The notes beneath the pieces were generated by a model. The model had not been told where the DNA came from, did no database searches, and saw nothing but the letters and a program-made list of their open reading frames with translations. From a virus (lineage: Duplodnaviria > Caudoviricetes), in IMG/VR virus record IMGVR_UViG_3300027917_000018, positions 96,001 to 160,000 of that record: DNA of 64,000 nt; one strand, written 5' to 3'. Position numbers and translations under genes: made by a program. Each line of letters begins with the position of its first letter. Position 1 is the first letter of the stretch. Positions 23,935 through 55,304 of the stretch are shown here, one piece after another.

Positions 23935-25124
23935 CGCCCAATCAGCAAGATCGCGCTCTGAAGAATGCCAGCCGGTGGCTGCACAAGTACCGGCGGGCCG
24001 CCCGGCAGACCCTTGGCCCGGAGCGCGCCAAGTATCAGCAAGCCGCCCGGAATTATCGTGGATGGATTTCAACGCTGCGCCGGGACATTGCGAACCGGCC
24101 CACAGAAGAAGGAATTGAGATGAGCAAACTGCACGAAGCTTACGGCTGGGTGGTCAGCTATGACGCCCCAGGTGGCACGAAATGGTACTGGGGCCAGAAA
24201 GGCTGGGTTCAGGACCGGCATCAGGCCAAAGCCTCGATGAAGAAGGCCGATATGATCAGCCTGGCGCAAAGCTTGGTGCGCAACGCCCCGGCCTTGCAGG
24301 ACCGCATCGGCGTTCAGGTGAACGCACCGAAGTTGGAGGGCATTCCTGCAAACACGGGCGAAGATGAAGGGTTCCGTCGGATGAAGCGCCTGGCCGCCAG
24401 ACCGGACAGCGAGCTTGGACCAAGCGCACGCCGCGCCAAAGCGCGGTTCCTGGCGAACAACAAGAAGGCCGATGCCATGTTCAAATGGGCTAAGGGCGTC
24501 AAGGAGGACGTGCCTTTTGCCCAGCCTGCCGGTGGGCCGGACGACCCGTGGCGGCAAAGCATAGTGAAGGTGCCTTACGACCAGTTCGATTTCAGCGGCA
24601 AGCGCGGCAAAGAAGACGTGGAGGACGAGGACGACGAGGAAAAAGAGACCGAGAAGCCCAAGGCCAAAAGCCGTTTTGACCTCAAGTTCGATGAGTCCGA
24701 GACGCTCGCCTCCAGGGTCCTGGAGACTGGCGAACGCAGCAAGCGCGACATCTACAATGAGCTGGAGCGCTTGTGGGCGGAGCGCGACGAGATGCAGCGG
24801 CTCCAGCGGTTCATGGCCAAGTGGGCGCTCATCAAGGACGAGCTGGGCATCAGCGACGCGGACATCCAGGCCCTGGACATCGAAACCAAGGGCGACGGCA
24901 GCAAATGGGCGGTGGGCATCTACCTCAAGGAGCCGCGCTATGACCTGAAGATGCAGCGGGCCGACGCCCGCCGTAAACGTTTGGATCGTGAGTGGGCCGA
25001 GAAGAATCCTCATTTGCACCGCAGTCAGAAGCCGTCGTGGTCGCCGGGTCACCGGCATTCCAGCTCCAGCTACATCGCTTTGGAGCAGCCGCTTTATCTG
25101 CCCAAAGCCTACTTCAAGAAATGA
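23931..25124 (+). CDS. multi-module protein with ETLASRVLE linker (putative head-cargo polyprotein)
   Basis: Internal MSKLHEA and ETLASRVLET; acidic spacer. Confidence 0.55.
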   Translation: MTPNQQDRALKNASRWLHKYRRAARQTLGPERAKYQQAARNYRGWISTLRRDIANRPTEEGIEMSKLHEAYGWVVSYDAPGGTKWYWGQKGWVQDRHQAKASMKKADMISLAQSLVRNAPALQDRIGVQVNAPKLEGIPANTGEDEGFRRMKRLAARPDSELGPSARRAKARFLANNKKADAMFKWAKGVKEDVPFAQPAGGPDDPWRQSIVKVPYDQFDFSGKRGKEDVEDEDDEEKETEKPKAKSRFDLKFDESETLASRVLETGERSKRDIYNELERLWAERDEMQRLQRFMAKWALIKDELGISDADIQALDIETKGDGSKWAVGIYLKEPRYDLKMQRADARRKRLDREWAEKNPHLHRSQKPSWSPGHRHSSSSYIALEQPLYLPKAYFKK

Positions 25125-27262
25125 AGGTTGCCGGGCACGAGGTTGAGACCGTCACCCATCCGCATCACGGCGGCTGGATGGCGATAGCCTACCTCGAAGG
25201 CGGCAAGCAAGTGGCCGGAGCGCCGTGCGACACCAAAGAGCTGGCCGAGAAAGACCTTCACGACAAGCTCTACGACATGCTGCGGCCCAAGTTCGATCCG
25301 AAGAAAACCTACGAGCAATCCGAGGAATACCAGCAGCGCGTGATTGCGAGAGCAGAAACGTTTACGCCTTTCAAGCGAGCGATGTGGGACCTCGATGTGG
25401 CACTGACTGACCGCGCCTTCGAGGCCGCCAGCCAGTACCACCACTACCCGGATACGCCGGATAAGTGGTTTGCCCAGGGCGGCGAATGGTACCTGAGCGA
25501 TGGAGGTTACAGCCGCGTCGTTTACAGCGAGGAGACCGGGAGGCTGTTCCTGACCAGCAACAGCCGCGACCAGGTCAAGGCGCGGTGGGACGAGGCGCTG
25601 CCCCAGCGGGCCAAGGCCGAGGCCATCATTAACGACTACATGCGCCAGGAGCTGGGCGAGGCCAAGACCAAGTTTGCCGCCGTGGTGCTGCTGAAGGACA
25701 AGGACGACCCCAAGGCTCTGATCATCAAGCGGGATGACGAGCCCGAGGCGGGCAAGTGGGCCTGTCCTGGTGGCCACTGCGATCCGGGCGAGGACGACGA
25801 GGCGGCAGCCCACCGGGAGCTGAAGGAGGAGACGCGCTTGTCCGCCGAGAGCCTGGTTCCGCTGGGCAAGACCGCCGATGGCACGGCCATGTTCTGCGGC
25901 TGGGCCAAGACCGAGGACGCCAAAGGCACAGCCACCGACGACGCCGAGGGCCTCAAGTGGGTCTCGGTCGACAACCTGCCGGAGCTGGCATTTGGCAACG
26001 AAAAGCATATCCGCCAGGCCGTTCGCAAGCTCAAGGCCAAGGAGGAGGCACTCCAGCTCGCCCGCGAGGTTCTTAATGAGGTCACGCCTCGGGAGCTTTT
26101 AAGTCGGCACCCCGGAGAGGCAGAGCCGTACGTTTTCTTTCAGCCGTCGGGCATAGAATCGTTCAAGCTACCCCTCCAAAAAGTGGCTTCGACTTACGGT
26201 TGGGATTACACACAGGCTGAGCTTAGCCAGGAACAGCTAAACTGGCTCGACCTCCACGGTGAGTCTGTTTTTATAGCCTTGAACGACTACGGAGCAATCA
26301 ATAGCGACATTCTGGACGCAAACGACGAAACTGCGGGTACTTTCAGCGTCGTTGGTAACCTCGATAGCGCTACAGAAGTCAACAGTCTCGAACGTCTCAC
26401 GCCGCCGTGGCGCACGGAAGGCAAGATCGGCAGTCCGCGCCAGAACCGTTGGAACCCGATGGGGCTTCACCGCAATCACCGGGGCCAGCTCGTGGACAAG
26501 TACGGGCGCGTCATGGACGTGGACTGGGATGAGTTTGAGCGCAAGCGCCTGAAGCCCGGCGAGGAATTGAAGAGCCCGAAGGTGCTCAATCCGCTTCACC
26601 AGGCGGCCAAGGCCACCGGCCAGGTCGAGGCGCGGGAGCCAGAAAAACCGGGAAAGCCGATCAGTCCCCGCGAGCTGCTCAGGAAGTACCCGCGTGAACA
26701 GCCCTATCTGCTCAAGGGCGAGATTGAAGACACCCAGCGCCTGGTCAAGGTCCTGGACCGGTTCGACAACGAGGAGCACATCTACGATGACGGCTACGGG
26801 CCGCTGTGGGTCATGCGGGAAAGCCTGGGCATCACCGGCATTGCCCGAGCCCGTTCGTGGGAGGATGCCTATAGCATCGCCGAGGACGAGTTCTTCCATG
26901 AGGCGGATGAAACGGTCGAAGAGCTTCAGAAGGAGTACGGCTTTCGGCGCGAGCACGTCAAGATCGTGCGCGATCCGAAAACCGGCGAGGAGCGAGATGT
27001 TCAGCAGGGCGACTATCCGTTTGCGGAAACCGGCGTCGAGTTCGTGCGTTGGGAGACTAGGGAAACCCCTGACCCGGACGGCTGGATTGACAACGAGCTG
27101 TTCCAGGAGGCGTACGGCTTCAGGCCAAACGGCCCCAATGCCCGCGACACGCACCAGCACGGTATTTACCAAAAGGACCTCAACGGCGAGGTCTTGGACG
27201 AGCTGACGCCAGCCCTGGCCGAAGAGCTTCAGTTGAGAATCTACGTGGAGGACGAAGAATGA
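25121..27262 (+). CDS. mosaic protein containing a Nudix hydrolase domain
   Basis: GGHCDPGEDDEAAAHRELKEET Nudix box near 25770-25835; internal LAREVLNEVTPRELL and ISPRELL linkers. Confidence 0.8.
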   Translation: MKVAGHEVETVTHPHHGGWMAIAYLEGGKQVAGAPCDTKELAEKDLHDKLYDMLRPKFDPKKTYEQSEEYQQRVIARAETFTPFKRAMWDLDVALTDRAFEAASQYHHYPDTPDKWFAQGGEWYLSDGGYSRVVYSEETGRLFLTSNSRDQVKARWDEALPQRAKAEAIINDYMRQELGEAKTKFAAVVLLKDKDDPKALIIKRDDEPEAGKWACPGGHCDPGEDDEAAAHRELKEETRLSAESLVPLGKTADGTAMFCGWAKTEDAKGTATDDAEGLKWVSVDNLPELAFGNEKHIRQAVRKLKAKEEALQLAREVLNEVTPRELLSRHPGEAEPYVFFQPSGIESFKLPLQKVASTYGWDYTQAELSQEQLNWLDLHGESVFIALNDYGAINSDILDANDETAGTFSVVGNLDSATEVNSLERLTPPWRTEGKIGSPRQNRWNPMGLHRNHRGQLVDKYGRVMDVDWDEFERKRLKPGEELKSPKVLNPLHQAAKATGQVEAREPEKPGKPISPRELLRKYPREQPYLLKGEIEDTQRLVKVLDRFDNEEHIYDDGYGPLWVMRESLGITGIARARSWEDAYSIAEDEFFHEADETVEELQKEYGFRREHVKIVRDPKTGEERDVQQGDYPFAETGVEFVRWETRETPDPDGWIDNELFQEAYGFRPNGPNARDTHQHGIYQKDLNGEVLDELTPALAEELQLRIYVEDEE

Positions 27263-27708: not shown

Positions 27709-28278
27709 ATGCCAATTGTCAAAAACTTCACCCGGCAGGCCAGCAGTGCTGGCGGCGACCTCGTGCCCGTGCTCAAGAGCCTGGGCGGCGACCAGTTTGA
27801 TGAGCGCACGATGGAGCTGCGCAATTTCTTTGGCATCAAACTGACGACCACGGACGTTAATCGCAGCGGCGCGTCTACTCCGGTGGACGACCAGTTCACG
27901 GTGGCGCTCACGCAAGGTGTTCAGGTCATGCTGGAATATCGAATTGCCTGGACGCTTCCGGCGTCTCCGACTGCTACAGGCATTGAGTTTGGCTGGAATT
28001 TTCCGCTCTCTCCAGCCTTCACGGACGGCTACCAAATCAACTGGTATGAGTCGATCGCCGCAGGTGCCAGCACTATTGTAGGTCTTGTTTCCAATGGCGA
28101 GGGAGCGCCTGTGCCCATCTTTGCCAACACCACTGCCATTCGGAACAACGGCAGGTGGCACGTCGAGGGCTTCTTTGTTGTGACACCCACGTCGAGCGGC
28201 AACGCCGAATTCTTTTGGGGCAATTGCACGGATGTTACCCGCAGCGCGGGCAGCCACGTGCGCGTCACACCTGTATGA
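27709..28278 (+). CDS. beta-rich probable virion protein
   Basis: T/G/N-rich beta pattern. Confidence 0.5.
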   Translation: MPIVKNFTRQASSAGGDLVPVLKSLGGDQFDERTMELRNFFGIKLTTTDVNRSGASTPVDDQFTVALTQGVQVMLEYRIAWTLPASPTATGIEFGWNFPLSPAFTDGYQINWYESIAAGASTIVGLVSNGEGAPVPIFANTTAIRNNGRWHVEGFFVVTPTSSGNAEFFWGNCTDVTRSAGSHVRVTPV

Positions 28279-28610
28279 GTCGAGCCCGCGCCATCTTGGA
28301 AGCGGAGACGCCCAAGAGCGTTATGGCGGAGCTGCCATCGGATGAAATTGAAATCCGTTGTCACCTTCAGGACAATCGGCTTCACAGCGGGCGGGAGGTT
28401 TCCGATCCTGGCAGTCACTTTGACCGCGTGGTTGTTTCGGGCCGCGATTGGCCAAAGGTCGAGCAGCTTGGGCTTTGGCTGGAGCCCGACCCGGACGAGC
28501 GTGGCGTTTACTGGTGCGGCGACCTTTACGTCACCGAGCTGCAAGGTGCGCTTGACGATGCCGGGATCAAGCATGACTGGTGGGAAAGCGATCCCCTGGA
28601 GGACGAATGA
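28275..28610 (+). CDS. leader-bearing protein (MSRARAILEAETPK)
   Basis: True start ATG 28275 is ATGA-coupled. Confidence 0.75.
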   Translation: MSRARAILEAETPKSVMAELPSDEIEIRCHLQDNRLHSGREVSDPGSHFDRVVVSGRDWPKVEQLGLWLEPDPDERGVYWCGDLYVTELQGALDDAGIKHDWWESDPLEDE

Positions 28611-28945
28611 GCCGCGCCCGAGCCATCCTGGAGGCTGAGCCTCGCGACCTGATGCGCCGCGCCGCCCAGCGTGAGAAGGCCGAGGCAGGCAAGTGGCCGG
28701 TTCAACCCGGCGACAAGGGCTTCCTTTTCATTCTCGGCGAGAATCCGAACCTTTCTTTGAACGTCTACGCGCCGACCACCGCCCTGGCCGTCGAACGCTG
28801 CAATCAGGTTCTTAAGGAGCTGTTCCCCGACGGCTTGATGCACCGGAATGACCGCTGGGACACGACCTTTCATTTTGATTGGACGAAATTGGAGGCCAGG
28901 GACTCGGACATCTACGATGAGTGGGCGCTGGATGCTGAGCGGTGA
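28607..28945 (+). CDS. leader-bearing protein (MSRARAILEAEPR)
   Basis: ATG 28607 is ATGA-coupled. Confidence 0.75.
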   Translation: MSRARAILEAEPRDLMRRAAQREKAEAGKWPVQPGDKGFLFILGENPNLSLNVYAPTTALAVERCNQVLKELFPDGLMHRNDRWDTTFHFDWTKLEARDSDIYDEWALDAER

Positions 28946-34516: not shown

Positions 34517-34735
34517 GTGAGCCGCGCTCGGTCCATTCTCAACGAAGTCACAGACGTTCCGTCCAGCTTTCCCCGCGACCGCACCACCAAGGTCAAGGCT
34601 GGGGACGGCTGGATTTACGTTCGCCCGGCGGGCAGTGGCTTCTATGTGACCGCCACTGGCATGAAGGGTGAGCAGGTGCCCGCCAAGGACATCCGGTGGT
34701 TCGTGCGCGAGCTTTACGCTTTCATGACCCAATAG
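34517..34735 (+). CDS. leader-bearing small protein (MSRARSILNEVT)
   Basis: Leader motif. Confidence 0.7.
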   Translation: MSRARSILNEVTDVPSSFPRDRTTKVKAGDGWIYVRPAGSGFYVTATGMKGEQVPAKDIRWFVRELYAFMTQ

Positions 34736-34743
34736 TTAAAGTG

Positions 34744-35511
34744 ATGGCTTCGCCGAGAGACATGCTGGCCAGGTCGCCGTTTACGGGCAGGCGCTTCGCA
34801 ACTGCCGACGGTTACACCTTCTACGAAAAGCGCGACGGCTCCTGGGTAGACAACCTGGACCCGGAGCGCGTCGACATGTCGTTCGGCAGCGAAGAGGAGG
34901 CCATCAGCGGGCTAGTCGACGCCGGTTACACGCCCGAGGAGGCCAAGCAGCTTATCGCTGGAACCTGGGAGCCCAGTCCCGAGGAGGAAGAAATTCTGCG
35001 GCAGTGGTTTCAGGGCGAAAGCATGGGCCGCGCCCGTGCGATCGTGGAAGAGGAAAGCCCGCGCTCGTTTCTCAAGAAAATTGGTGCTGACCCATTTGGC
35101 AGGGTGGCTATCCGCGTAGGTGCTCCGCTTAACCCTCAGACGGTTGTGGTGCCAGTTCACTGGGTTTACGACATGGTTTCGACCGGAGGCGATTCACTTC
35201 CAGGGGTTGTGCTTCACACTGGCGACGCGCCGCCCGCGCCCCAGGGAATGACCAAGCCGCAGTACTCCTGGATGCTGGCCGTGATCGCTTATGCGTTAAA
35301 CGAAGGTCCAGTGTTTCAGGAAGACCGCCCGAGGGACGATGCTGACCGCGAGATGGACCCGGAAGACGATATGTGGCTGCCGGATTTCAGCTGGGAATTC
35401 CTGGGCGGGGAGAAGGTCTTCGACCGGGCGATGGAATGGGCCATAGAGCATCCCGGCGAGCGCGCCGGTTATGAGTTCCCCAAAGGTTTCGACGGACCCG
35501 TCGTTGGCTAG
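34744..35511 (+). CDS. two-module protein with an internal full leader (MGRARAIVEEESPR at 35023)
   Basis: Starts MASPRDML; in-frame Met-leader mid-gene; TAGTTA at 34733-34738 upstream. Confidence 0.7.
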   Translation: MASPRDMLARSPFTGRRFATADGYTFYEKRDGSWVDNLDPERVDMSFGSEEEAISGLVDAGYTPEEAKQLIAGTWEPSPEEEEILRQWFQGESMGRARAIVEEESPRSFLKKIGADPFGRVAIRVGAPLNPQTVVVPVHWVYDMVSTGGDSLPGVVLHTGDAPPAPQGMTKPQYSWMLAVIAYALNEGPVFQEDRPRDDADREMDPEDDMWLPDFSWEFLGGEKVFDRAMEWAIEHPGERAGYEFPKGFDGPVVG

Positions 35512-36376: not shown

Positions 36377-36692
36377 CCGCCGTCAAATTGCGGTGTCGCT
36401 GCGGTCGTGGTGCGGGCACGGTGTAGGTCACGACGTTGGAAGGCTCGGACTCCAGCGCTGACGTGTTGTAGCAGGTCGCGTAGAACGCGTAGGTTCTGCC
36501 CGGTTCCAAAGCTTCGATCACGGTGTTGGTGACGTTGCCGCAGTCCTTGACGACCGTGTAGTTTCCAGGAGGCGATCCGTAATAAATCCGGTAGCCCGCA
36601 ACGTCCGGCTCCGGGTTCGGGTCCCAAGCCAGCATTACCGTGGCGGCATGCGTCATGGCCAGCGAGCAAAGGAGAAAAACGAGCGTTCTCAT
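36276..36692 (-). CDS. secreted fibronectin type III domain protein
   Basis: Signal peptide, then LAWDPNPEPDVAGYRIYYG..LEPGRTYAFYATCYN..ESEPSN. Confidence 0.8.
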   Translation of the reverse strand: MRTLVFLLCSLAMTHAATVMLAWDPNPEPDVAGYRIYYGSPPGNYTVVKDCGNVTNTVIEALEPGRTYAFYATCYNTSALESEPSNVVTYTVPAPRPQRHRNLTAAIRRSIRTAFPRHTATSWLSDRLNRLIAGILPS

Positions 36693-37933
36693 CGGAACGA
36701 ATAGAGCGTCGAGCGCCCAAAGCCTGGCTCGTCACGGTCGTAGCCGGTGTCTCTGACAAGACCACGCGCTGCCAGCCGCAGAAGCGCCCGCTCCATGTAA
36801 ACGTAACCCATACCGGTGGAATCGCGCCAGAAAAAGCGCTCGATGCCGCCGTTCTTGAGCTGGGTCAGAATGCTGATCAGGAAGCTTTCGCAGGCGGCGT
36901 CCCTGTAGGGTAAGTCGCTGTCCGCCCAATACACGGCGCTCAGAAACAACATTTCCCTGCCGCTCACCTTCTTCCAGAGCGTTGTCGCGGCAGCGAGCTT
37001 GTTGCGCTCGTTCCACTGGGTTACGGCGGGCTGCCCGCCCTCAACGTGCGTAGTCTTCCAGTCAAAGTTGGGCTGTGCGACCACCTGCAATCCTGCGCGC
37101 CGCAGCAAGGCGCGAGGGCTTACGGCCTCCACCAGGCCGAACACGGCCATGCCCGACCGGTTTGTCAGCCTGACGACGCCTTCCCGCGCCAAAGCTTCCA
37201 GCGCGTCCAAGAACGGATCGCCGGGTTTGAAGAGGCTGAAGAGGAATCTGCCGATACCGCGTGCCTTGGCCTGATCGAAGATGCTTTTGAGAAAAGCTTG
37301 TCGGAAGCTTGGGTCCAGTTCGTCCGGGCCGTCGGCGCGGATCACCAAGGTATCTCCGTCGTGGAAGCTCGTGCTGGCGAACGTATAGGGCTCATGGGTT
37401 TGCCAGACCGTGTCCTGGTAGCGGCTTCGCCGCCGGTACCAGTCTGCGTCGGCAGGCACGGCCATCGGCTTGCCGAATCCAGTCTTCAGCAGGCTCTTGG
37501 GGTCTTCGGCCTCCTCGACGTTTTCCTCCTCGTAGGGGACCAGCCGCCAATGAAATACGCCGGTCTGCTCCTCCCCGGTGGTGGAAACTTCGGCGGGAAT
37601 CCGCCAGGTCTCGGCCCCGGAGCGCTCGCCGCGCTTGAGCGCTTGCCAGACCTTTCGATCATAGTCGAAGATTTCCTCGAACTGCTCGCTTTCTACGTCG
37701 ACCGTGGTGCGATCGGCCAGGAAAGCGTGGACGCCGTACATGCCGTCAAGTTGATCGATGTCGCTGGCGTGGGAGCCGTGAATCTCCGGGTCACGCCCGA
37801 TCCGAAACGGCGTGTACTCGTCCAGCTCGATTGTGTTAACGTAGTAATAGCCAGGTAGGATGTGCTCCTGGCTCATGCGCTTAAGCCAGGCTCGCGGTGT
37901 TTCAGCTTCCAGAATGGCTCGTGCGCGGCCCAC
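36689..37933 (-). CDS. leader-bearing polyprotein with two similar alpha/beta (GNAT-like?) modules
   Basis: MGRARAILEAETPR; internal EAEDPKSLL and EAVSPRALL. Confidence 0.75.
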   Translation of the reverse strand: MGRARAILEAETPRAWLKRMSQEHILPGYYYVNTIELDEYTPFRIGRDPEIHGSHASDIDQLDGMYGVHAFLADRTTVDVESEQFEEIFDYDRKVWQALKRGERSGAETWRIPAEVSTTGEEQTGVFHWRLVPYEEENVEEAEDPKSLLKTGFGKPMAVPADADWYRRRSRYQDTVWQTHEPYTFASTSFHDGDTLVIRADGPDELDPSFRQAFLKSIFDQAKARGIGRFLFSLFKPGDPFLDALEALAREGVVRLTNRSGMAVFGLVEAVSPRALLRRAGLQVVAQPNFDWKTTHVEGGQPAVTQWNERNKLAAATTLWKKVSGREMLFLSAVYWADSDLPYRDAACESFLISILTQLKNGGIERFFWRDSTGMGYVYMERALLRLAARGLVRDTGYDRDEPGFGRSTLYSFR

Positions 37934-37957: not shown

Positions 37958-38359
37958 ATGAACGCTGAGACGGAAGGCCGATGGTCGAAGGCTGTAGGGA
38001 CGATGCGCGAGCTGATGAAACAGCACGTTCAGGCTCACGCAAAAGTCCGGGAACTGTACTTCTCGATCCTTTACCACGCTGAGCTGGAGAAAGCTGGCCT
38101 CAAGAAAGACCAGGTCTCCTACCTGGTCCACGGGGCCAATCTGCCTGCGGGTGGCAAGTTCAGTCGGCAGCAGATGGCCAGGGCCTACCCGGATTGGGCG
38201 TTCGGCGTGAAGCTCAAGCCGACCGAGGGCGAGACCGAGGGCAAGATCGTGTGGTTCGAGAATCCGATTCCGCCCAAGGAGAAGCTCCACATCGAGGACC
38301 TGGAGACGCCCGCTCAGCGACAAGAACGTTTACGAATCAAGAGCCTTGGCTTGGAATGA
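37958..38359 (+). CDS. hypothetical protein
   Basis: ATG 37958 follows the motif. Confidence 0.6.
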   Translation: MNAETEGRWSKAVGTMRELMKQHVQAHAKVRELYFSILYHAELEKAGLKKDQVSYLVHGANLPAGGKFSRQQMARAYPDWAFGVKLKPTEGETEGKIVWFENPIPPKEKLHIEDLETPAQRQERLRIKSLGLE

Positions 38360-38517
38360 GCTTAGCCCGTGACATCCTGGAGGCCGAATCGCCTCGTGCC
38401 TTTATGAAGAGGCTGCCGATCCACCAGCTGGAGCGGCTCGGCGTGTGGAAGGTCCGGCGCACGCCACGGATGCCCGACCCGGACGACGATTCCGGCGATG
38501 CTTGGGCACATTTATGA
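38356..38517 (+). CDS. 53-aa leader-bearing peptide (MSLARDILEAESPR)
   Basis: ATGA-coupled on both sides. Confidence 0.65.
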   Translation: MSLARDILEAESPRAFMKRLPIHQLERLGVWKVRRTPRMPDPDDDSGDAWAHL

Positions 38518-40625
38518 GCGCGGCCCGTAACATCCTGGATGCTGAGACGCCGCGCTTTGTTCTCAAGGCGCTAGGCCGCCGCACGCTCGGCGTTTCGACC
38601 AAGCTGCTGCGCTCCTATCTGCGCCAGGAGGGCTTTCCGGTCGTTCAGCTTTACCGGCGCAGCAACAAGTGGCAGGACGCGATTGAAATGACAATCGTGG
38701 CCAGCGACCCCACGCTCCGCACCGACGCCGTGCTCTACGAGGTTATGGCCAGGGTCGAGAATTGGCTTGAGCAGAACTACCCCAAACTCGCGCCTCTCTT
38801 GTCCGTGAACGGCTGGGTTGCGCTTTGGCGTGACCAGAACAGCTTTGAGATTTCGATTACCAACCAGTACCGAGAGCAGACAGAAGCTCTGGAAAGCCCG
38901 GCCTCCGTACTGCACCAGATCGCGACCAACACGGTCATGGCCAAGCACGCGGACTTTCGGCAAGTCGCGGACGACGTGTGGCTCCTGGACGCGGGGAACT
39001 TTCAGGCCGAGGCTCGGGTCAAGCAGTCCGCGCAGGGCCGCCAGTGGGACCTTGCGATCTTTACGGTGACACACGGACCGTACCGGCGTACGCCCCAGGC
39101 AAGCTGGAACAATCTTACGGATCGCCAGTTCGCGATGGTGATGACGAACGTTTTTGGGGTGGCCGAGGCGGTGGACCCGCGCTCGCTTCTGCGAAAGCTG
39201 TACGACCCATCCGACCCGGTCGTTTCGGCCCTCGTCAAGATAGGCTTTCAGAAGGTGCCCGGCGGCCCGGAGAAGCGGCATCGGTTTGAGCTGCGGCGCG
39301 GCAATCGCACGTACGATCTTTGGTGGTACTGGGACGCGGCTCCGGGCGGCGGCAGGGAGCGTCGGTGGGACTTCGACGTGTGGGAAGATAATCCCGGTGG
39401 CGGCAAAGAACTGGTGGGCAACCACAATTCCATAGGCGACGGGCTTATTGCGAGGCTGCTCGGCAGCGGCTACGGCCTTTTGCCAGAATCCAGGAAACTC
39501 ATCGAGCAGGAGACTGAATCGCCGCGAGGCTTCCTTAACCGGCTCAGGCGGGAGCGCCTGTACTTCGGACAGCGGTTCGAGCGCGTGCCCTTTGGTGCCC
39601 GATGGGGCATGAACGCTCACGTTCGTAGGCTTTCCGACGATGGCGAGCCTGAAGTATTTGTTCAGCCGTCGGCCAGCTCCAGGCCGGTGCCGCTAGACCT
39701 GCAAGCATCTTTGGAAGTGGCTCAGCTGAGCCCGACGGGGTTTGAGTGGGGCTACGGCGGGAGCGGCCCGCATCAGCTTGCCCTGGCCCTTCTTTTGGAC
39801 GTGACCAGCGATCCCCAGCGGGCGTACCACGCACACCACGCCTTTACGGCAAGCGTCATTGCGCACTTGCCGCGCAAGGAATGGACGCTGACCTCCAGGA
39901 GGATTCTGAGCTGGCTGTCTGCCTGGGAAAACACGGGCGTCAAGGAAGCCGTCAGTCCCAGGGAGCTTTTGGTGCCCAGGGCCGCGCACGCGGTCGGGCA
40001 TTGGCTGGCCAGTTTGAAGTTCCACAAGGTCGGCGATGCCTGGCAAAGGTTTTGGCACGGGCATGCGCAAATGGACGTGGAGCCCCAAGGCCAGGACAAG
40101 TGGAAAGTGACGGTTTGGCGCTTGCCGAGCCCAACGGCTTTCGGCTTGCGCCTGCGCCGCAAGCTGCGCGCAACCAGCACCGTGCCGCTCGGGGCTGTGC
40201 CCCAGGTTGTGCAAAAGTGGGTCAAGGAGCTGAGTGTCGAGCAGGACCCTGAGCTTGCCGAGGCCGCCGAGACACCGCGATCCGTGCTTAAGGCATTGCC
40301 CAAGTTCGACGAGGACACGGAGGTCACGCTGCGTTGGCTGCGCCATGTGGTCGGCCAGCACATCGTTCGGCAGGTTGACATCGTGAGCGAAAGGCCAGAT
40401 TTCCAGCATACCGACGCCCGCCTTTACGTGATCATTGAGGTCAGCCAGGGCTACCAACGACAGCCGCTCCTCCGGCGCTACTGGGTCGATTTTGCCAGCC
40501 GGGGTGTGCTGGCCCAGGCGCTGCGCCAATGGGCCAACCTGCAAGGGGCTAAGCTCCGCGTGGACGGCCAGGACGCTGGCAAGGTCGCATACCGTAATCC
40601 CGTTTTGGCAAAACTTGCCGCATGA
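38514..40625 (+). CDS. leader-bearing six-module polyprotein including a DUF6166-like domain
   Basis: MSAARNILDAETPR; linkers at 38883, 39165, 39510, 39945, 40260; FEWGYGGSGPHQLALALL. Confidence 0.8.
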   Translation: MSAARNILDAETPRFVLKALGRRTLGVSTKLLRSYLRQEGFPVVQLYRRSNKWQDAIEMTIVASDPTLRTDAVLYEVMARVENWLEQNYPKLAPLLSVNGWVALWRDQNSFEISITNQYREQTEALESPASVLHQIATNTVMAKHADFRQVADDVWLLDAGNFQAEARVKQSAQGRQWDLAIFTVTHGPYRRTPQASWNNLTDRQFAMVMTNVFGVAEAVDPRSLLRKLYDPSDPVVSALVKIGFQKVPGGPEKRHRFELRRGNRTYDLWWYWDAAPGGGRERRWDFDVWEDNPGGGKELVGNHNSIGDGLIARLLGSGYGLLPESRKLIEQETESPRGFLNRLRRERLYFGQRFERVPFGARWGMNAHVRRLSDDGEPEVFVQPSASSRPVPLDLQASLEVAQLSPTGFEWGYGGSGPHQLALALLLDVTSDPQRAYHAHHAFTASVIAHLPRKEWTLTSRRILSWLSAWENTGVKEAVSPRELLVPRAAHAVGHWLASLKFHKVGDAWQRFWHGHAQMDVEPQGQDKWKVTVWRLPSPTAFGLRLRRKLRATSTVPLGAVPQVVQKWVKELSVEQDPELAEAAETPRSVLKALPKFDEDTEVTLRWLRHVVGQHIVRQVDIVSERPDFQHTDARLYVIIEVSQGYQRQPLLRRYWVDFASRGVLAQALRQWANLQGAKLRVDGQDAGKVAYRNPVLAKLAA

Positions 40626-51436: not shown

Positions 51437-51823
51437 ATGAATACGACAAAAGCACTGAAATGGGCGGTTTTTTGCGTGTTGACTCTTCCCGTGCTCCTAT
51501 TCGCGCAGGACGAGACCCCACTCGCCGAGCTGCCTAAAAGCACGCAGGAGTTTTGGGTCCTGGGCATCGCTGTTGTTTCCCCGCTGATCGTTCAGGGGAT
51601 CAAGTGGGCGGTTCCCAAGATTCCGAAGCTTCTGCTACCAAGCGTCACACCCTTCATCGGCATGGCTTTGGGCTATGGGCTGAATGCCCTGGGCACGGCT
51701 GACCTGGGATGGGTGGATGCTGCGCAAGCGGGCGCTCTGGCCGTCTTCGTTCGCGAGGTCGTCAACCAAGCGGTGAAGTCTCGGCAGGCGGCTGACACAC
51801 CGGCCCAGCCTCCTTCTGGCTAG
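51437..51823 (+). CDS. holin-like membrane protein
   Basis: Three to four hydrophobic segments, charged C-tail. Confidence 0.5.
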   Translation: MNTTKALKWAVFCVLTLPVLLFAQDETPLAELPKSTQEFWVLGIAVVSPLIVQGIKWAVPKIPKLLLPSVTPFIGMALGYGLNALGTADLGWVDAAQAGALAVFVREVVNQAVKSRQAADTPAQPPSG

Positions 51824-52853
51824 GGATTTCAACTGAACCTTCATCCTCCCCTGCGGGTGGCTCATCCGCAGGGGATTTTCGTTTACGGTCTGTTCGGTTC
51901 AATTCATCGGCGAGGCTGTACTGCCTGATCTTGTTGTAAAGCGTTTGTCGCCCGATCCGCAGCCGCTGCGCTGCGTGCTTGATGTTGCCGTGGCAGCCTT
52001 GGATGGCCTCGATGATAAGCCTGCGCTCCGCCAGCTCAATCGGCCCCAGTGTATGGCCCTGTTCCGCCTTTTCCTGCGCCGTTTTGTCGAGGGCAGCCTG
52101 GGCGACCGGAGGGCTGAATCCGTCGGGCGGTAGGGAGTGTCGGTAGCCCAAAGCCAGCACGCGTTGTATTTCGTTCTCCAACTGCCGGACGTTGCCAGGC
52201 CATTCGTAAGCCAGTAGAGCTTCCTTGGCTTCCTTACCGAGGTAGACGGGTTCGGTAACAGCCTGTTCCTTAGCGTACCAATTGAGAAACGTTTCGGCCA
52301 GGGGCAGAATGTCATTTCTTCGATTGCGCAGCCGGGGCAGAAAAAGCGTGACGGCACCGATGCGGTAGTAAAGGTCAGGACGTAAACGTTTTTGTTCGAG
52401 CAGCATTTCTGGCAGGTTGCTCACGGCGCAAATCAGCCGAAAGTTAATGGCGTCCTCCTTGGTGCTCCCGACGCGTCGGACTTTCCTTTCCTGAAGGACC
52501 CGCAGCAGCTTTGACTGTGCTCCCAGCGGCATTTCGCTCAGCTCGTCCAGGAAGAGGGTGCCGCCATCCGCTGCCCCGATCAGGCCCGTGCGGTCGTTGC
52601 TGGCCCCAGTGTAGGCACCACGGGCCGCGCCGAACAGCTCGCTCTCGACGAGGTCTTTGGGCAATGCCGCGCAGTTGACACAGATCATCGGCTGTTTGCG
52701 CCGAGGGCTGTTCTCATGGATATGGCGTGCAACGACTTCCTTGCCCGTTCCGGTCTCGCCGCAGAGCAGGATGGGAATGCCGCTGGCAGCAATCTGGTTG
52801 CAGGTGGCTACCAGAGCTTGCATTGCTGAACTGGCGAATACGGGCTTGTACAT
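51762..52853 (-). CDS. sigma54-dependent enhancer-binding protein (AAA+ plus Fis HTH, no N-terminal sensor)
   Basis: GETGTGKE, ESELFG, GAYTGA, GGTLFLDE, RPDLYYR, WPGNVRQL, HAAQRLRIGRQTLYNKI. Confidence 0.92.
   Translation of the reverse strand: MYKPVFASSAMQALVATCNQIAASGIPILLCGETGTGKEVVARHIHENSPRRKQPMICVNCAALPKDLVESELFGAARGAYTGASNDRTGLIGAADGGTLFLDELSEMPLGAQSKLLRVLQERKVRRVGSTKEDAINFRLICAVSNLPEMLLEQKRLRPDLYYRIGAVTLFLPRLRNRRNDILPLAETFLNWYAKEQAVTEPVYLGKEAKEALLAYEWPGNVRQLENEIQRVLALGYRHSLPPDGFSPPVAQAALDKTAQEKAEQGHTLGPIELAERRLIIEAIQGCHGNIKHAAQRLRIGRQTLYNKIRQYSLADELNRTDRKRKSPADEPPAGEDEGSVEIPSQKEAGPVCQPPAETSPLG
51847..51879 (+). terminator. intrinsic terminator
   Basis: TCCCCTGCGG / CCGCAGGGGA stem followed by TTTT. 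Confidence 0.65.
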
Positions 52854-52860
52854 AGGTTAA

Positions 52861-53313
52861 ATGATACCGCGAGACGTTTTCTACGATCGACTCGGCAAGC
52901 ACTGCCAGCAGTGTGAGCACTGGGCCAACGTCTGCCTTAAGGGCCATGCGTCCAGCTCGCCGGAGGGCTGCCCGATCTACAAGTTTCCGCCGATCCAGGG
53001 AGCCCAATACGCGTCCGTGCGCGAAGCCCCGTCGCCACCGGCCTTCGCCAATTGCTGCGGTAACACTATCCAAGAACTGGAACCGTTAACCTGGCCGCAA
53101 GTTTTGGCGCATTTTGCCGAATCCATGACGAAGTGGATCGCGTCGGGAATGAAGGTCGTCAAGAAGGACACGCACATGAGCCGCTACGGCACCTGCAAGC
53201 TCAACACGTGCGGGGAATTCCGGGATTTCTACTGCCACCACTGTAAGTGCATCGCTTACTGCAAGGCCAAGCTGGCGACGGAAACGTGCCCGAAGAAGCT
53301 CTGGCCTACATGA
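52861..53313 (+). CDS. Cys-rich protein (DUF6171-like C-terminus)
   Basis: CQQC..C..CP; CHHCKC..KAKL..ETCPKKLW. Confidence 0.6.
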   Translation: MIPRDVFYDRLGKHCQQCEHWANVCLKGHASSSPEGCPIYKFPPIQGAQYASVREAPSPPAFANCCGNTIQELEPLTWPQVLAHFAESMTKWIASGMKVVKKDTHMSRYGTCKLNTCGEFRDFYCHHCKCIAYCKAKLATETCPKKLWPT

Positions 53314-54061
53314 CTTCGAGCTGGGTGCCGTCTTCCGTCGGGCTGATGTAGATTTCGCCGTAGGAATGAGCAGCTGCCGTGAGCCGCTCGCCCGCCTCTT
53401 CATCGTCCGTGAAATCGCCATCCCAAAAGCCAGCGCCGTGGCCGTTGCGGGTTAGCCAGAAGTCGTGCCCGGCCCGTGACGGATCGCCTTCGATGTCCCG
53501 CCAGTTTTTCTTCCAGAAGTCTTCGCATTCAGCCCGGAGCGTCTCTCGGGCCGCGTCGGTGAAGTCCCCGGTGTCGTAATCACGGTCCAGTGGGTGGCCG
53601 TGGCCTTCAGGGTCAACGGCGTCGTTGTTGCTGCTCCAGATGGCTGTCTCCAAGTATTGCTCGAAGAATTCTTCGGGCATTTCGGGCACGTGCGGGGCGT
53701 GCTTTTTGAGAAACTCACGGGGCGTTTCGGCCTCTACGACATCGCTGATTTCCCCGACGCCATGTCCGGTTGAGCTGACGAGAAAGATTTTGTTTACAGA
53801 AGGGCCTATAAGCCTTGGGTAGCCAAGCGGCTTGCCTAAGAGATTGTGGGCAATGCTCTTGGCGTCCTTGTAATCTCGTGTCGACCCATTGTCCGGCGTT
53901 CCACGGCCCCAATACCAGTGGGGTATGCCGTAGGTCCAGTAATAGGGAGTGCCTTCAGCCACACCGACCAGGAAAAACCGTGGATTGCGAAACTTGTGCT
54001 TGAGCAAGTCCCTGGGCGATTCCCCGGCCAATCCGTCGATGATAGCCCGTGCCCGGCTCAT
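53306..54061 (-). CDS. leader-bearing two-module protein; C-module with AGHDFWLTRNGHGAGFWD
   Basis: True start 54061 (MSRARAIIDGLAGESPR); internal EAETPREFL at 53734. Confidence 0.75.
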   Translation of the reverse strand: MSRARAIIDGLAGESPRDLLKHKFRNPRFFLVGVAEGTPYYWTYGIPHWYWGRGTPDNGSTRDYKDAKSIAHNLLGKPLGYPRLIGPSVNKIFLVSSTGHGVGEISDVVEAETPREFLKKHAPHVPEMPEEFFEQYLETAIWSSNNDAVDPEGHGHPLDRDYDTGDFTDAARETLRAECEDFWKKNWRDIEGDPSRAGHDFWLTRNGHGAGFWDGDFTDDEEAGERLTAAAHSYGEIYISPTEDGTQLEVM

Positions 54062-55068
54062 AGGTCGCGCTCCCGCTTTACGTCGTGGGCGTAGTAGTCC
54101 AGCTTGAAGCCCATCTTTTGCGCCAGCCGCCACGGCGCTTCTTCGCGGGTCTCTGGCGGAAGGTAGCCCCTGTGGCGCAGCCAGTCGAAGGCGCGGGTCA
54201 GGTAGTGGTCGCCGTAGCCTCCGGCCATCGGGAGCGTGTGAACCAACTCGCCGTTTACATAAATGTCCGCCGTGTTGTAGGTGTTGCCATAGGTTCGGCG
54301 AAACCACCGCCTGCCGATGACGGCGACTTCGCGCAGGACAAAGTGCTTTTTCAGAAGGTCGCGGGCCGACACCGCCTCCTGTTGGGGCCTGGGCGGCAGT
54401 AGCGGCGCAAAGATGTTTACGAACTGCTCCTTCGGGAGAAGCCGCGACATCATGCTCATCAGGTCATAAATGTCGCCCAGCGGGATTGGCTTTTCGCCGG
54501 ATATGTCGTACCAGACCTTGTCCTTTTTCTCCCAAAAAGAGCCGCCGGATGGCAGATCGATGCGCCGCCCGGTCCATTCAGTCTTGCGCTTGAAAAACTC
54601 ACGAGGATTCACGGCCTCGACGACTTTGGGCCTGGTCTGCTCACGCGGCCAGAGCACGATGCGCCATTCACGAGGCCCGGCTACGCCGTCCACCCTACCG
54701 CTTCGCTGGCCTTTGCTGGCGTTGGGATACATTTTTGAGGTGTACCTGTGCATTTCGTCGGCGATGACCTGCTCTTCCTCATCCGTGAAATCCAGCAAGT
54801 CGGGATGGTTGGGATACCGCTGGAAGGTCTGCTCGAAGCCTAAAGCGTCTTCCACATCGTTGAGCAAACCGTACTCGCCGTCTTGTGGGAACACCGAGCC
54901 GTCGTCCCCAATGCCGACGGGCACGTATTCGGTCTGGTCATCGTCCATCATCGGCGGCTTACGGATCGCCAGATAGTAGCCTTCTCCGCCAGGTGGCAGC
55001 AGACGCGGCAGCCGCTTGATAATGGATCGCGGGCTCTCAGCCTCAATGATGTCGCGTGCCCGGCTCAT
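54058..55068 (-). CDS. leader-bearing three-module polyprotein
   Basis: MSRARDIIEAESPR; EAVNPREFF (54618), EAVSARDLL (54378). Confidence 0.75.
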   Translation of the reverse strand: MSRARDIIEAESPRSIIKRLPRLLPPGGEGYYLAIRKPPMMDDDQTEYVPVGIGDDGSVFPQDGEYGLLNDVEDALGFEQTFQRYPNHPDLLDFTDEEEQVIADEMHRYTSKMYPNASKGQRSGRVDGVAGPREWRIVLWPREQTRPKVVEAVNPREFFKRKTEWTGRRIDLPSGGSFWEKKDKVWYDISGEKPIPLGDIYDLMSMMSRLLPKEQFVNIFAPLLPPRPQQEAVSARDLLKKHFVLREVAVIGRRWFRRTYGNTYNTADIYVNGELVHTLPMAGGYGDHYLTRAFDWLRHRGYLPPETREEAPWRLAQKMGFKLDYYAHDVKRERDL

Positions 55069-55304
55069 TTTTGAGCGTAAGCCTTTTTGATCGCGTCCGG
55101 CGGATCGGCGGCCATGAGGCGCATGGTGCTGCCATCGTCGAAGGTGACGATGTGCATGACTTCGGGCATCAAGTCCGAAGCGGGCGTGTTGGGCTGGGCG
55201 ACCTCGGCGCTTACGGGCCGCCTGGCGCGGCGGGCCGCCTGGCTAAAGCGCTTGATTTTGTCCCGAGCGGACTCAGCCTCCAGGATGGTGCGCGCACGGC
55301 TCAT
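55065..55304 (-). CDS. leader-bearing small protein (MSRARTILEAESAR)
   Basis: ATG 55304 overlaps the upstream stop. Confidence 0.7.
   Translation of the reverse strand: MSRARTILEAESARDKIKRFSQAARRARRPVSAEVAQPNTPASDLMPEVMHIVTFDDGSTMRLMAADPPDAIKKAYAQK

What the first reader, a model, noticed from the sequence alone, without database searches (positions are those of the whole stretch)
38514..40625. Polyprotein architecture: the leader's signal recurs between domains
Seen: the 703-aa ORF is cut into roughly 90-145 aa modules by EALESPASVL (38883), EAVDPRSLL (39165), ETESPRGFL (39510), EAVSPRELL (39945) and EAAETPRSVL (40260). These match the second half of the N-terminal leader. One module is DUF6166-like (FEWGYGGSGPHQLALALL) and lies exactly between two linkers. 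The same linkers split 36689-37933 (37513, 37129), 54058-55068 (54618, 54378) and 53306-54061 (53734). Inference: these ORFs are concatenated cargo units released by the prohead protease, each mature piece starting with a conserved [AT]-x-[ST]-P-R-x-x-L helix cap that could be an ejection or DNA-docking tag.
Basis: partly seen in the sequence, partly recalled or inferred. Interest (0 to 1): 0.88.

Follow-up and report, generated by a model that had tools for sequence, protein, structure and literature searches.

The report
Phage cargo polyprotein with repeated linkers
A 203-kb T4-type jumbo phage joins unrelated small proteins into long precursors with one conserved peptide that also starts about 20 of its genes and looks like a cut site for its head-maturation protease, so the pieces are probably loaded into the capsid and cut apart, though no cutting or packaging has been shown.

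Summary
The 703-aa ORF (38514-40625) has a 20-aa N-terminal leader (M-S-R-A-R-x-I-L-E-A-E-[ST]-P-R-x-F-L-K-K type). The second half of that leader recurs at five internal sites. Four of them fit a strict motif, against 0.05 expected; 0 of 20,000 shuffles reached four.

The linkers mark real module borders:
- The DUF6166 fold (aa ~345-474) lies between two linkers.
- Modules occur as stand-alone genes in this window and elsewhere.
- Metagenomic relatives carry the same modules in other orders, always joined at this peptide.
- Codons vary synonymously, and three junctions have no upstream in-frame start codon.

The polyprotein reading is well supported. Release by the prohead protease is plausible but untested.
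- The genome has a T4 gp21-type (S77) protease next to a gp23-type capsid gene.
- The leader reads aliphatic-x-Glu at residues 7-9, like T4 propeptides.
- Three of four checked relatives have related or different leader/linker "dialects", and all keep aliphatic-x-Glu followed mostly by a small residue.
- An ejection or DNA-docking role for the retained tag has no support.

This is a new variant of the T4 capsid-targeting/internal-protein system. The scan has reported similar leader or linker systems on other phage genomes.

The parts
38514..40625 (+). 703-aa six-module precursor (P0001)
   Evidence: One uninterrupted ORF. Modules are aa 10-124, 125-218, 219-331, 332-478, 479-583 and 584-703.
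38514..38573 (+). N-terminal two-part leader. Part A is MSAARNILD (address plus putative cut site, here Asp instead of Glu). Part B is AETPRFVLKAL.
   Evidence: leader profile E 1.8e-11.
38883..38912 (+). Linker 1 (EALESPASVL), a degenerate copy
39165..39191 (+). Linker 2 (VAE-AVDPRSLL). In relative P0003 the same module starts the protein with a full Met leader.
39510..39536 (+). Linker 3 (LIE-QETESPRGFL); keeps traces of leader part A (SRKLIE)
39546..39935 (+). DUF6166 module core (aa ~345-474)
   Evidence: Pfam E 1.3e-23. 4,934 representative proteins match P0001 at E<=0.001; nearly all of the 150 listed are 92-363 aa (mostly 100-150) and align to aa ~336-496. The AF2 model has block-mean pLDDT 91-97 for 385-474, and both linkers lie outside the core.
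39945..39971 (+). Linker 4 (VKE-AVSPRELL)
40260..40289 (+). Linker 5 (LAE-AAETPRSVL); conserved in front of the same module in P0003, P0004 and P0005
37958..38359 (+). First gene of the operon (133 aa, no leader), with TAGTTA 5 nt upstream. In relative P0005 it is fused in front of leader-module 3-module 6.
   Evidence: 49% identity, E 4e-36
38356..38517 (+). 53-aa leader gene, a shortened copy of a 127-aa gene in relative L001
40622..41437 (+). Stand-alone leader gene (271 aa) that forms the third, internal module of relative P0003
   Evidence: 44% identity, E 6e-76; its leader aligns with the internal linker of P0003
41434..43003 (+). Three more leader genes of the same operon (93 aa; 332 aa with a weak, sub-threshold 2H-phosphoesterase-like match plus a PRTase-like part; 98 aa)
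36689..37933 (-). 414-aa three-module leader protein (linkers at 37513 and 37129), with TAATTAA 3 nt before the start
53306..55304 (-). Three leader genes: 79 aa; 336 aa with two linkers; 251 aa with one linker. The last modules match stand-alone phage families phrog_6246 and phrog_1915.
24992..27262 (+). 756-aa protein with a NUDIX module (aa 229-338) followed by an internal leader-like linker at aa 363
28275..28945 (+). Two small leader genes (28275-28610 and 28607-28945)
34517..35511 (+). Leader gene (72 aa, TAGTTA upstream) and a 271-aa ORF with an internal full leader that includes Met at 35023

Best explanation
The ORF is a cargo precursor. Six unrelated small protein modules are made as one chain. 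Each module is preceded by the same peptide that starts about 20 other genes of this phage.

The peptide has two parts. Part A (M-S-R-A-R-x-I-L-E, N-terminal only) most likely works like the T4 capsid-targeting sequence and brings the chain into the assembling prohead. The aliphatic-x-Glu at the end of part A, and in front of most internal linkers, is most likely the cut site of the phage's gp21-type (S77) prohead protease. Part B (A-x-[ST]-P-[RK]-x-hydrophobic-hydrophobic-basic) would stay on each released piece. The pieces would then travel in the head and enter the next host with the DNA.

Shown here: the two-part peptide, its selection at the protein level, its coincidence with module borders, frequent fusion and fission of modules at it, an S77 protease in the genome, and conservation of aliphatic-x-Glu across different linker dialects in related phages.

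Inferred: capsid targeting, cleavage, and delivery into the host.
For: 1. Borders.
- Stand-alone DUF6166 proteins (mostly 100-150 aa) align between linkers 3 and 4.
- The AF2 model with a 124-sequence alignment has block-mean pLDDT 91-97 for aa 385-474 and lower values over both linkers.
- phrog_6246, phrog_1915 and phrog_36523 (113-141-aa families) each match one module next to a linker, and NUDIX ends before one.

2. Fusion and fission.
- P0003 reads leader-module 3, linker, module 6, linker, and a copy of the gene at 40622.
- P0004 and P0005 hold modules 3 and 6 in other contexts.
- Window genes 37958 and 40622 are internal or fused modules elsewhere.
- The syntenic contig L001 has a five-module 547-aa protein.

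3. Constraint. Linker columns are as conserved as domain columns (0.67-0.81 against 0.65-0.71). Codons vary synonymously.

4. Start codons. There is no upstream in-frame start codon at three of the five junctions.

5. Protease.
- Peptidase_S77 (E 4.8e-20) fused to a scaffold-like tail lies next to a Gp23-type capsid gene.
- In the T4 sequence, LTE-65, where the 65-residue gp23 propeptide ends, is followed by Ala. gp21 has LIE at residue 9, its self-cleavage point, and gp67 starts MEGLIE-A. The cleavage facts come from PMC9958956 and PMC9026906.
- The leader here reads I-L-E at residues 7-9, and the protease itself starts MQQLLE-G.

6. Dialects in relatives with 73-82% capsid identity.
- G002 (S77 domain 61% identical) has at least 23 sites of aliphatic-x-E-[SAGD] followed by an acidic DDF-[DE]-x-KDL tag, at N-termini and inside ORFs of 803 to 1545 aa.
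- G001 has MxRAQxIVxxLLE-A..PDE..PK-x-YL leaders and internal EA-x-DPDEIKPK-x-[FY] linkers.
- G003 and G005 have ..LLE-type leaders.
- The element shared by all is aliphatic-x-Glu followed mostly by a small residue.
- In my hand tally, P3 is aliphatic in 17 of 27 internal linkers of this lineage and 14 of 18 in G002, against a background of 0.22 (p 6e-6 and 8e-7).

7. Expression signal. The start-proximal TAGTTA signal precedes the sheath, portal and fibre genes, and also leader genes and operons.
Against: - No experiment and no proteome exist for this uncultured phage.
- The complex prediction of the S77 domain with a leader gave no answer.
- P0001's own leader has Asp where the others have Glu (ILD-A). 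In T4 an Asp at that place blocks processing.
- About a third of internal linkers lack an aliphatic P3.
- The best-conserved residues ([ST]-P-R-x-x-L) lie after the putative cut, which has no T4 counterpart.
- Leader proteins show no bias towards basic pI.
- Aliphatic-x-Glu is a short, common pattern.
Confidence: 0.55

Rival explanations
1. The proteins are uncleaved multi-domain 'polyvalent' effectors. The repeated peptide is a docking or spacer helix, for example binding one common phage or host partner at each module, and not a cut site.
For: The most conserved residues form a predicted helix cap ([ST]-P then an amphipathic turn; helix 337-345). Phage polyvalent proteins with many shuffled domains are known (PMC5512222). 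Some junctions lack an aliphatic P3, or have Asp at the place of the Glu.
Against: Four architectures among four relatives, and the same modules as single genes, suggest that fusion is nearly neutral. That is easier to explain if the chain is cut. The part after the Glu is replaced by an acidic tag in G002 while aliphatic-x-Glu stays. Pfam reported no other family, and so no cis peptidase or typical polyvalent-protein domain.
Confidence: 0.25
2. The precursor is cut at the linkers, but in the cytoplasm by another phage or host protease. The products are not capsid cargo.
For: Nothing links the proteins to particles directly. The genes lie outside the head module.
Against: The junction motif matches the specificity class of the S77 enzyme, and the protease's own N-terminus carries the same motif. 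Leader operons share the start-proximal signal of structural genes. I did not screen all genes for other proteases.
Confidence: 0.1
3. The internal copies are decaying relics of gene fusions. Only the N-terminal leader has a function.
For: Part A is mostly lost at internal sites. One site (ESPASVL) is degenerate.
Against: Part B and the preceding Glu-Ala are as conserved as the domain cores across relatives about 50% identical. They recur at nearly every junction in several phages.
Confidence: 0.06
4. The leader is an export signal of the twin-arginine type ([ST]-P-R-x-F-L-K resembles S-R-R-x-F-L-K), or a DNA-level element.
For: A resemblance of six residues only (from my own knowledge of the Tat motif).
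Against: No hydrophobic stretch follows the motif in any member. The motif occurs internally. Codons vary synonymously and the upstream DNA is not conserved.
Confidence: 0.02

Closest known systems
Phage T4 internal proteins (IPI, IPII, IPIII, Alt) with the ~10-aa capsid-targeting sequence, processed by prohead protease gp21
   Same: A short N-terminal leader is shared by otherwise unrelated proteins. The leader ends in aliphatic-x-Glu at about residue 9. The genome has a gp21-type S77 protease and a gp23-type capsid protein. The cargo set is diverse and fast-changing (PMC3012670, PMC9026906, PMC9958956).
   Different: Here the leader has a conserved second half after the putative cut. That half recurs inside long ORFs as a junction between modules, giving precursors of up to six units. 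There are about 20 leader genes. I saw no sequence likeness to the T4 leader. Nothing has been shown experimentally.
Processed head and ejection proteins of giant phages phiKZ, 201phi2-1 and SPN3US
   Same: Many head proteins are cut after Glu at a three-residue motif by a T4-related protease. Paralogues share N-terminal propeptides (PMC5694885).
   Different: Those motifs have a small residue at P3 (S/A/G-x-E). The substrates are single proteins with propeptides, not chains of unrelated modules joined by one repeated peptide.
Polyvalent proteins of phages and conjugative elements (Iyer et al. 2017, PMC5512222)
   Same: Many unrelated, shuffled domains sit in one polypeptide of a phage. They were proposed to travel with the DNA and possibly to be processed.
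   Different: Processing there is ascribed to a peptidase domain in the same chain, and the word 'linker' does not occur in that paper's text. Here there is no cis peptidase, but a repeated junction peptide matching a protease encoded elsewhere in the genome. The characteristic domains of that class were not found.
Viral polyproteins cut by a viral protease at repeated consensus sites (established for many RNA viruses; from general knowledge)
   Same: One translation product, repeated junction motif, protease encoded by the same genome.
   Different: This is a DNA phage. The units are accessory proteins rather than core replication or capsid proteins, and cutting is inferred to take place inside the prohead.

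Membership tests
T4-type capsid-targeting / internal-protein system | Genome encodes a gp21-type (Peptidase_S77) prohead protease and a gp23-type major capsid protein | tested here: met
   PF03420 E 4.8e-20 and PF07068 E 2.3e-26, in adjacent genes
T4-type capsid-targeting / internal-protein system | One short N-terminal leader on several otherwise unrelated proteins | tested here: met
   About 20 genes. All-against-all BLASTP shows almost no likeness beyond the leader; the exceptions are the gene pairs 36689/54058 and 42707/55065.
T4-type capsid-targeting / internal-protein system | Leader ends in the protease's site (aliphatic-x-Glu) about 10 residues from the start | tested here: met
   I-[LIV]-E at residues 7-9 in most leaders; Asp in P0001 and in the ORF at 54061. 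T4 comparison.
T4-type capsid-targeting / internal-protein system | Leader is sufficient to load a protein into the prohead and is removed there | not testable with these tools
   Needs particles or a reconstituted system. The complex prediction gave no answer.
Polyvalent proteins (PMC5512222) | Two or more unrelated domains in one phage polypeptide, with mosaic architectures among relatives | tested here: met
Polyvalent proteins (PMC5512222) | Characteristic domains, including a zincin-like MPTase in the same chain | tested here: not met
   Above Pfam's own cut-offs only DUF6166 and NUDIX were found; PRTase-like and 2H-phosphoesterase-like matches fall just below them. No peptidase was found.
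DUF6166 (PF19663), module 4 only | Match above Pfam's gathering score | tested here: met
   83.3 bits against a cut-off of 27. No solved structure resembles the model.
Twin-arginine signal peptide | Arg-Arg motif followed by a hydrophobic core and a signal-peptidase site | tested here: not met
   Pro-Arg instead of Arg-Arg, and no hydrophobic stretch after the motif

The most novel reading that the evidence does not exclude
The clade uses a two-layer code. A conserved address plus protease cut site (aliphatic-x-Glu) is followed by a lineage-specific tag that stays on every released module: [ST]-P-R-x-F-L-K-K here, PDE..PK-x-YL in G001, acidic DDF-E-x-KDL in G002. The tag would be read after cutting, for instance for placement in the packed head, ordered ejection or a first contact in the host. 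It would co-evolve with its reader, so that each phage lineage has its own dialect for a library of dozens of injected proteins.
Probability: 0.25. Interest if true: 0.8.

Novelty: new variant of a known kind. Interest (0 to 1): 0.62.

Why it matters
If the reading holds, T4-type jumbo phages carry many small accessory proteins as a few cleavable precursors. New cargo could then be added simply by fusing a gene behind the junction peptide. That would explain the rapid module shuffling seen here. It would also give a sequence rule for predicting which of the many unknown genes of such phages are delivered with the DNA, and so which are early anti-host candidates. The clade is common in metagenomes: more than 200 capsid relatives at 73-91% identity. 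The rule would therefore annotate many genes. The different dialects in near relatives offer a natural experiment on what the protease and the capsid read.

Tried and rejected
- AF2 on the whole protein without an alignment was useless (mean pLDDT 36).
- The complex prediction of the S77 domain (aa 1-200) with a 40-aa leader peptide gave no answer, neither for nor against binding.
- Foldseek against the PDB found nothing for the DUF6166 model, and no paper mentions DUF6166.
- Phage database searches with DNA and with two proteins found no near relative. The capsid protein is at most 29% identical to any deposited phage.
- Searches for module 6 in viral and metagenome contigs found nothing.
- The strict leader DNA pattern has no match in IMG/VR or in GTDB genomes. 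It has 62 matches in metagenome contigs, of which only about five are true leaders.
- A profile of small leader proteins finds only eight proteins in the 5.8-billion collection, several of them this phage's own.
- A charge bias of leader proteins was tested and not found.
- Internal translation starts are rejected as a general explanation.
- A DNA-level repeat or recombination site is rejected because codons vary synonymously.
- A Tat-like signal is rejected for lack of a hydrophobic core.
- Records behind encoding-contig loci cannot be searched whole.

Full report
**What the window is.** The window is bases 96001-160000 of a single 202,975-bp contig with about 60% G+C. The genome encodes:
- a tail sheath, a portal, a baseplate wedge and a fibre protein;
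- a gp23-type major capsid protein;
- directly upstream of it, a gp21-type Peptidase_S77 domain fused to a long acidic, scaffold-like tail.

It is therefore a jumbo myophage of the T4 superfamily. Its capsid protein is at most 29% identical to any deposited phage. It has more than 200 relatives at 73-91% identity in metagenomes.

**Check of the observation.**
- The ORF at 38514-40625 translates without a stop into 703 residues.
- It begins with MSAARNILDAETPRFVLKAL and holds the five quoted internal peptides at exactly the quoted coordinates.
- Four internal sites fit E-x(1-3)-[STDEN]-P-[RK]-x-x-[LIVMF], against 0.054 expected. None of 20,000 shuffles reached four. The fifth site is a weaker copy.
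- The linkers quoted for the three other ORFs are also real.

The leader itself has the consensus M-S-R-A-R-x-I-L-E-A-E-[ST]-P-[RK]-x-F/V-L-K-K. It begins about 20 genes across the genome. With two weak exceptions, these genes share nothing beyond the leader. The codons for the same residues differ freely, including AGC and TCG for Ser, and the upstream DNA is unrelated. The peptide, not the DNA, is under selection.

**Do the linkers mark module borders?** Yes, wherever I could test it.
- *DUF6166.* Pfam places DUF6166 at aa 396-469. An exhaustive profile search found 4,934 representative proteins matching P0001 at E<=0.001. Nearly all of the 150 listed are 92-363 aa, mostly 100-150, and align to aa ~336-496. 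That region lies between linkers 3 and 4.
- *Structure.* An AF2 model of aa 325-495 with 124 such sequences has block-mean pLDDT 91-97 for 385-474. Confidence drops over both linkers. The P-R-G-F-L-N-R-L-R stretch is a short helix in front of the first strand.
- *PHROG families.* Profiles of 113-141 residues match single modules next to linkers in three other leader proteins. A NUDIX domain ends just before a linker in the 756-aa protein.

**Are the modules independent units?** Yes.
- P0003 (498 aa, from a Logan contig) starts with a full Met leader on the homologue of module 3. It continues through a linker into module 6, and through another linker into a copy of the window's separate gene at 40622.
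- P0004 and P0005 carry modules 3 and 6 behind other first modules. The first module of P0005 is the window's separate gene at 37958.
- A syntenic 7.9-kb contig (L001) has the same run of leader genes and a 547-aa protein of five modules.
- Further contigs show the same pattern.
- Across these relatives the linker columns are at least as conserved as the domain columns.
- Three of the five junctions in P0001 have no in-frame start codon upstream, so those modules can only be made as part of the chain.

**How would the units be released?** The literature establishes the T4 model.
- T4 loads its internal proteins into the prohead through a ~10-residue N-terminal capsid-targeting sequence. The gp21 protease then removes it.
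- T-even phages carry a diverse set of such proteins that share only that leader (PMC9026906, PMC9958956, PMC3012670).
- T4-related proteases cut after Glu at a three-residue motif (PMC5694885).

In the T4 sequence itself:
- LTE-65, where the 65-residue capsid propeptide ends, is followed by Ala;
- gp21 has LIE at residue 9, its self-cleavage point;
- gp67 starts MEGLIE-A.

The leader here reads I-L-E followed by Ala at residues 7-10, and the phage's own protease starts MQQLLE-G. Most internal linkers read aliphatic-x-Glu-Ala.

**Evidence from related phages.** The strongest support comes from four IMG/VR relatives with 73-82% capsid identity that I read in full. None of the five IMG/VR relatives searched holds this phage's linker.
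- *G002* has a protease domain 61% identical to this one. It has at least 23 sites of a different peptide: aliphatic-x-E-[SAGD], then an acidic DDF-[DE]-x-KDL tag. The sites lie at N-termini and inside ORFs of 803, 1146, 1192 and 1545 aa. A homologue of module 6 there ends in ..ALQE-GEGDDFEVKDL, at the point where P0003 has ..TGVAE-AVSPKDLL.
- *G001* has a longer, clearly related leader (MxRAQxIVxxLLE-A..PDE..PK-x-YL) and internal EA-x-DPDEIKPK-x-[FY] linkers.
- *G003 and G005* have ..LLE-type leaders.

What all these dialects share is aliphatic-x-Glu followed mostly by a small residue. In my hand tally, P3 is aliphatic in 17 of 27 internal junctions of this lineage and 14 of 18 in G002. The background is 0.22.

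**Weaker support.** A start-proximal TAGTTA signal stands 2-16 nt before 24 called gene starts (typically 4-8 nt), out of 37 occurrences genome-wide. My rough estimate is that fewer than one such placement would arise by chance. It precedes the sheath, portal and fibre genes, and also leader genes and the operon that holds this ORF.

**What speaks against, or is missing.**
- Nothing shows the proteins in particles, and nothing shows cutting.
- The complex prediction gave no answer.
- P0001's own leader has Asp at the cut position, which blocks processing in T4.
- A third of the junctions lack an aliphatic P3.
- The most conserved residues lie after the putative cut.
- Leader proteins are not generally basic.
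- No role for the retained tag can be named from these data.

**Comparison and verdict.** The closest known system is the T4 capsid-targeting/internal-protein system. The defining features that can be read from sequence are met. The functional ones cannot be tested here.

The system differs in three ways: the conserved second half of the leader, its reuse as a junction inside multi-module precursors, and the lineage-specific dialects. Phage polyvalent proteins share the mosaic multi-domain build, but they are thought to be processed by a peptidase in the same chain and have no described junction peptide. My paper searches found no description of cargo precursors joined by a repeated leader-like peptide. 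This scan's notebook holds similar unverified reports on other uncultured T4-type phages, so the theme is recurrent rather than unique.

I rate it a new variant of a known kind. The architecture is secure (about 0.9). Protease release inside the head is more likely than not (about 0.55).

Noticed in passing
whole genome; e.g. window 37948, 34507, 43448, 50827; genome 44198 (sheath), 68068 (portal), 71071 (fibre): TAGTTA (variants TAATTAA, TACTTAA) stands 2-16 nt before 24 called gene starts (typically 4-8 nt), out of 37 occurrences in the genome. I estimate fewer than one such placement by chance. It marks structural genes and several leader genes, and may be a late promoter for leaderless mRNAs or an unusual initiation signal.
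   Followed up: partly
genome 19041-20498 (L004:41-1498), capsid protein aa 19-48: The capsid propeptide holds SRFTEVLE and, 15 residues on, SPRGLWEA. Both loosely resemble the two halves of the cargo leader. The stretch is highly conserved in 17 relatives (..SRFT[DE]xLEWG..P[RK]GLWEA). The leader profile does not score it, so this is only a lead.
   Followed up: partly
genome 1614-2924 (-), L003: A tubulin/TubZ-like GTPase (PF00091 E 1.6e-9, TubZ-like C-terminal domain) in a phage with T4-type head genes.
   Followed up: no
window 51762-52853 (-): The homologue of this gene on relative contig L001 carries sigma-54 activator AAA+ and HTH_8 domains. A phage-encoded enhancer-binding protein lies next to the leader-gene region.
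   Followed up: no
L076:5132-7000 (-), relative contig next to the capsid gene: A 622-aa Cas12f1-like/TnpB gene sits directly downstream of the capsid gene in one relative and is absent at that place in this genome.
   Followed up: no
window 38356-38517: This 53-aa leader gene is a shortened copy of a 127-aa gene of relative L001. Both ends are kept and the middle is lost.
   Followed up: partly
G005 (IMG/VR relative, 224,954 bp): Several proteins have long Gly-x-x repeats (GFQG, GSQG; up to 63 sites per word). These collagen-like proteins are not seen in this genome's window.
   Followed up: no
genome 200320-201603 (+): A leader-like MRRARAIVE lies 40 codons inside a called 427-aa ORF. The true start may be there, which would add another leader gene near the contig end.
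   Followed up: no
window 53306-54061 (-) aa 130-245 and L001:7655-7897 (-): A conserved module with the motif FWLTRNGHGAGFWDG (phrog_1915, unknown function) occurs fused behind a linker here and as a separate small gene in the relative.
   Followed up: partly
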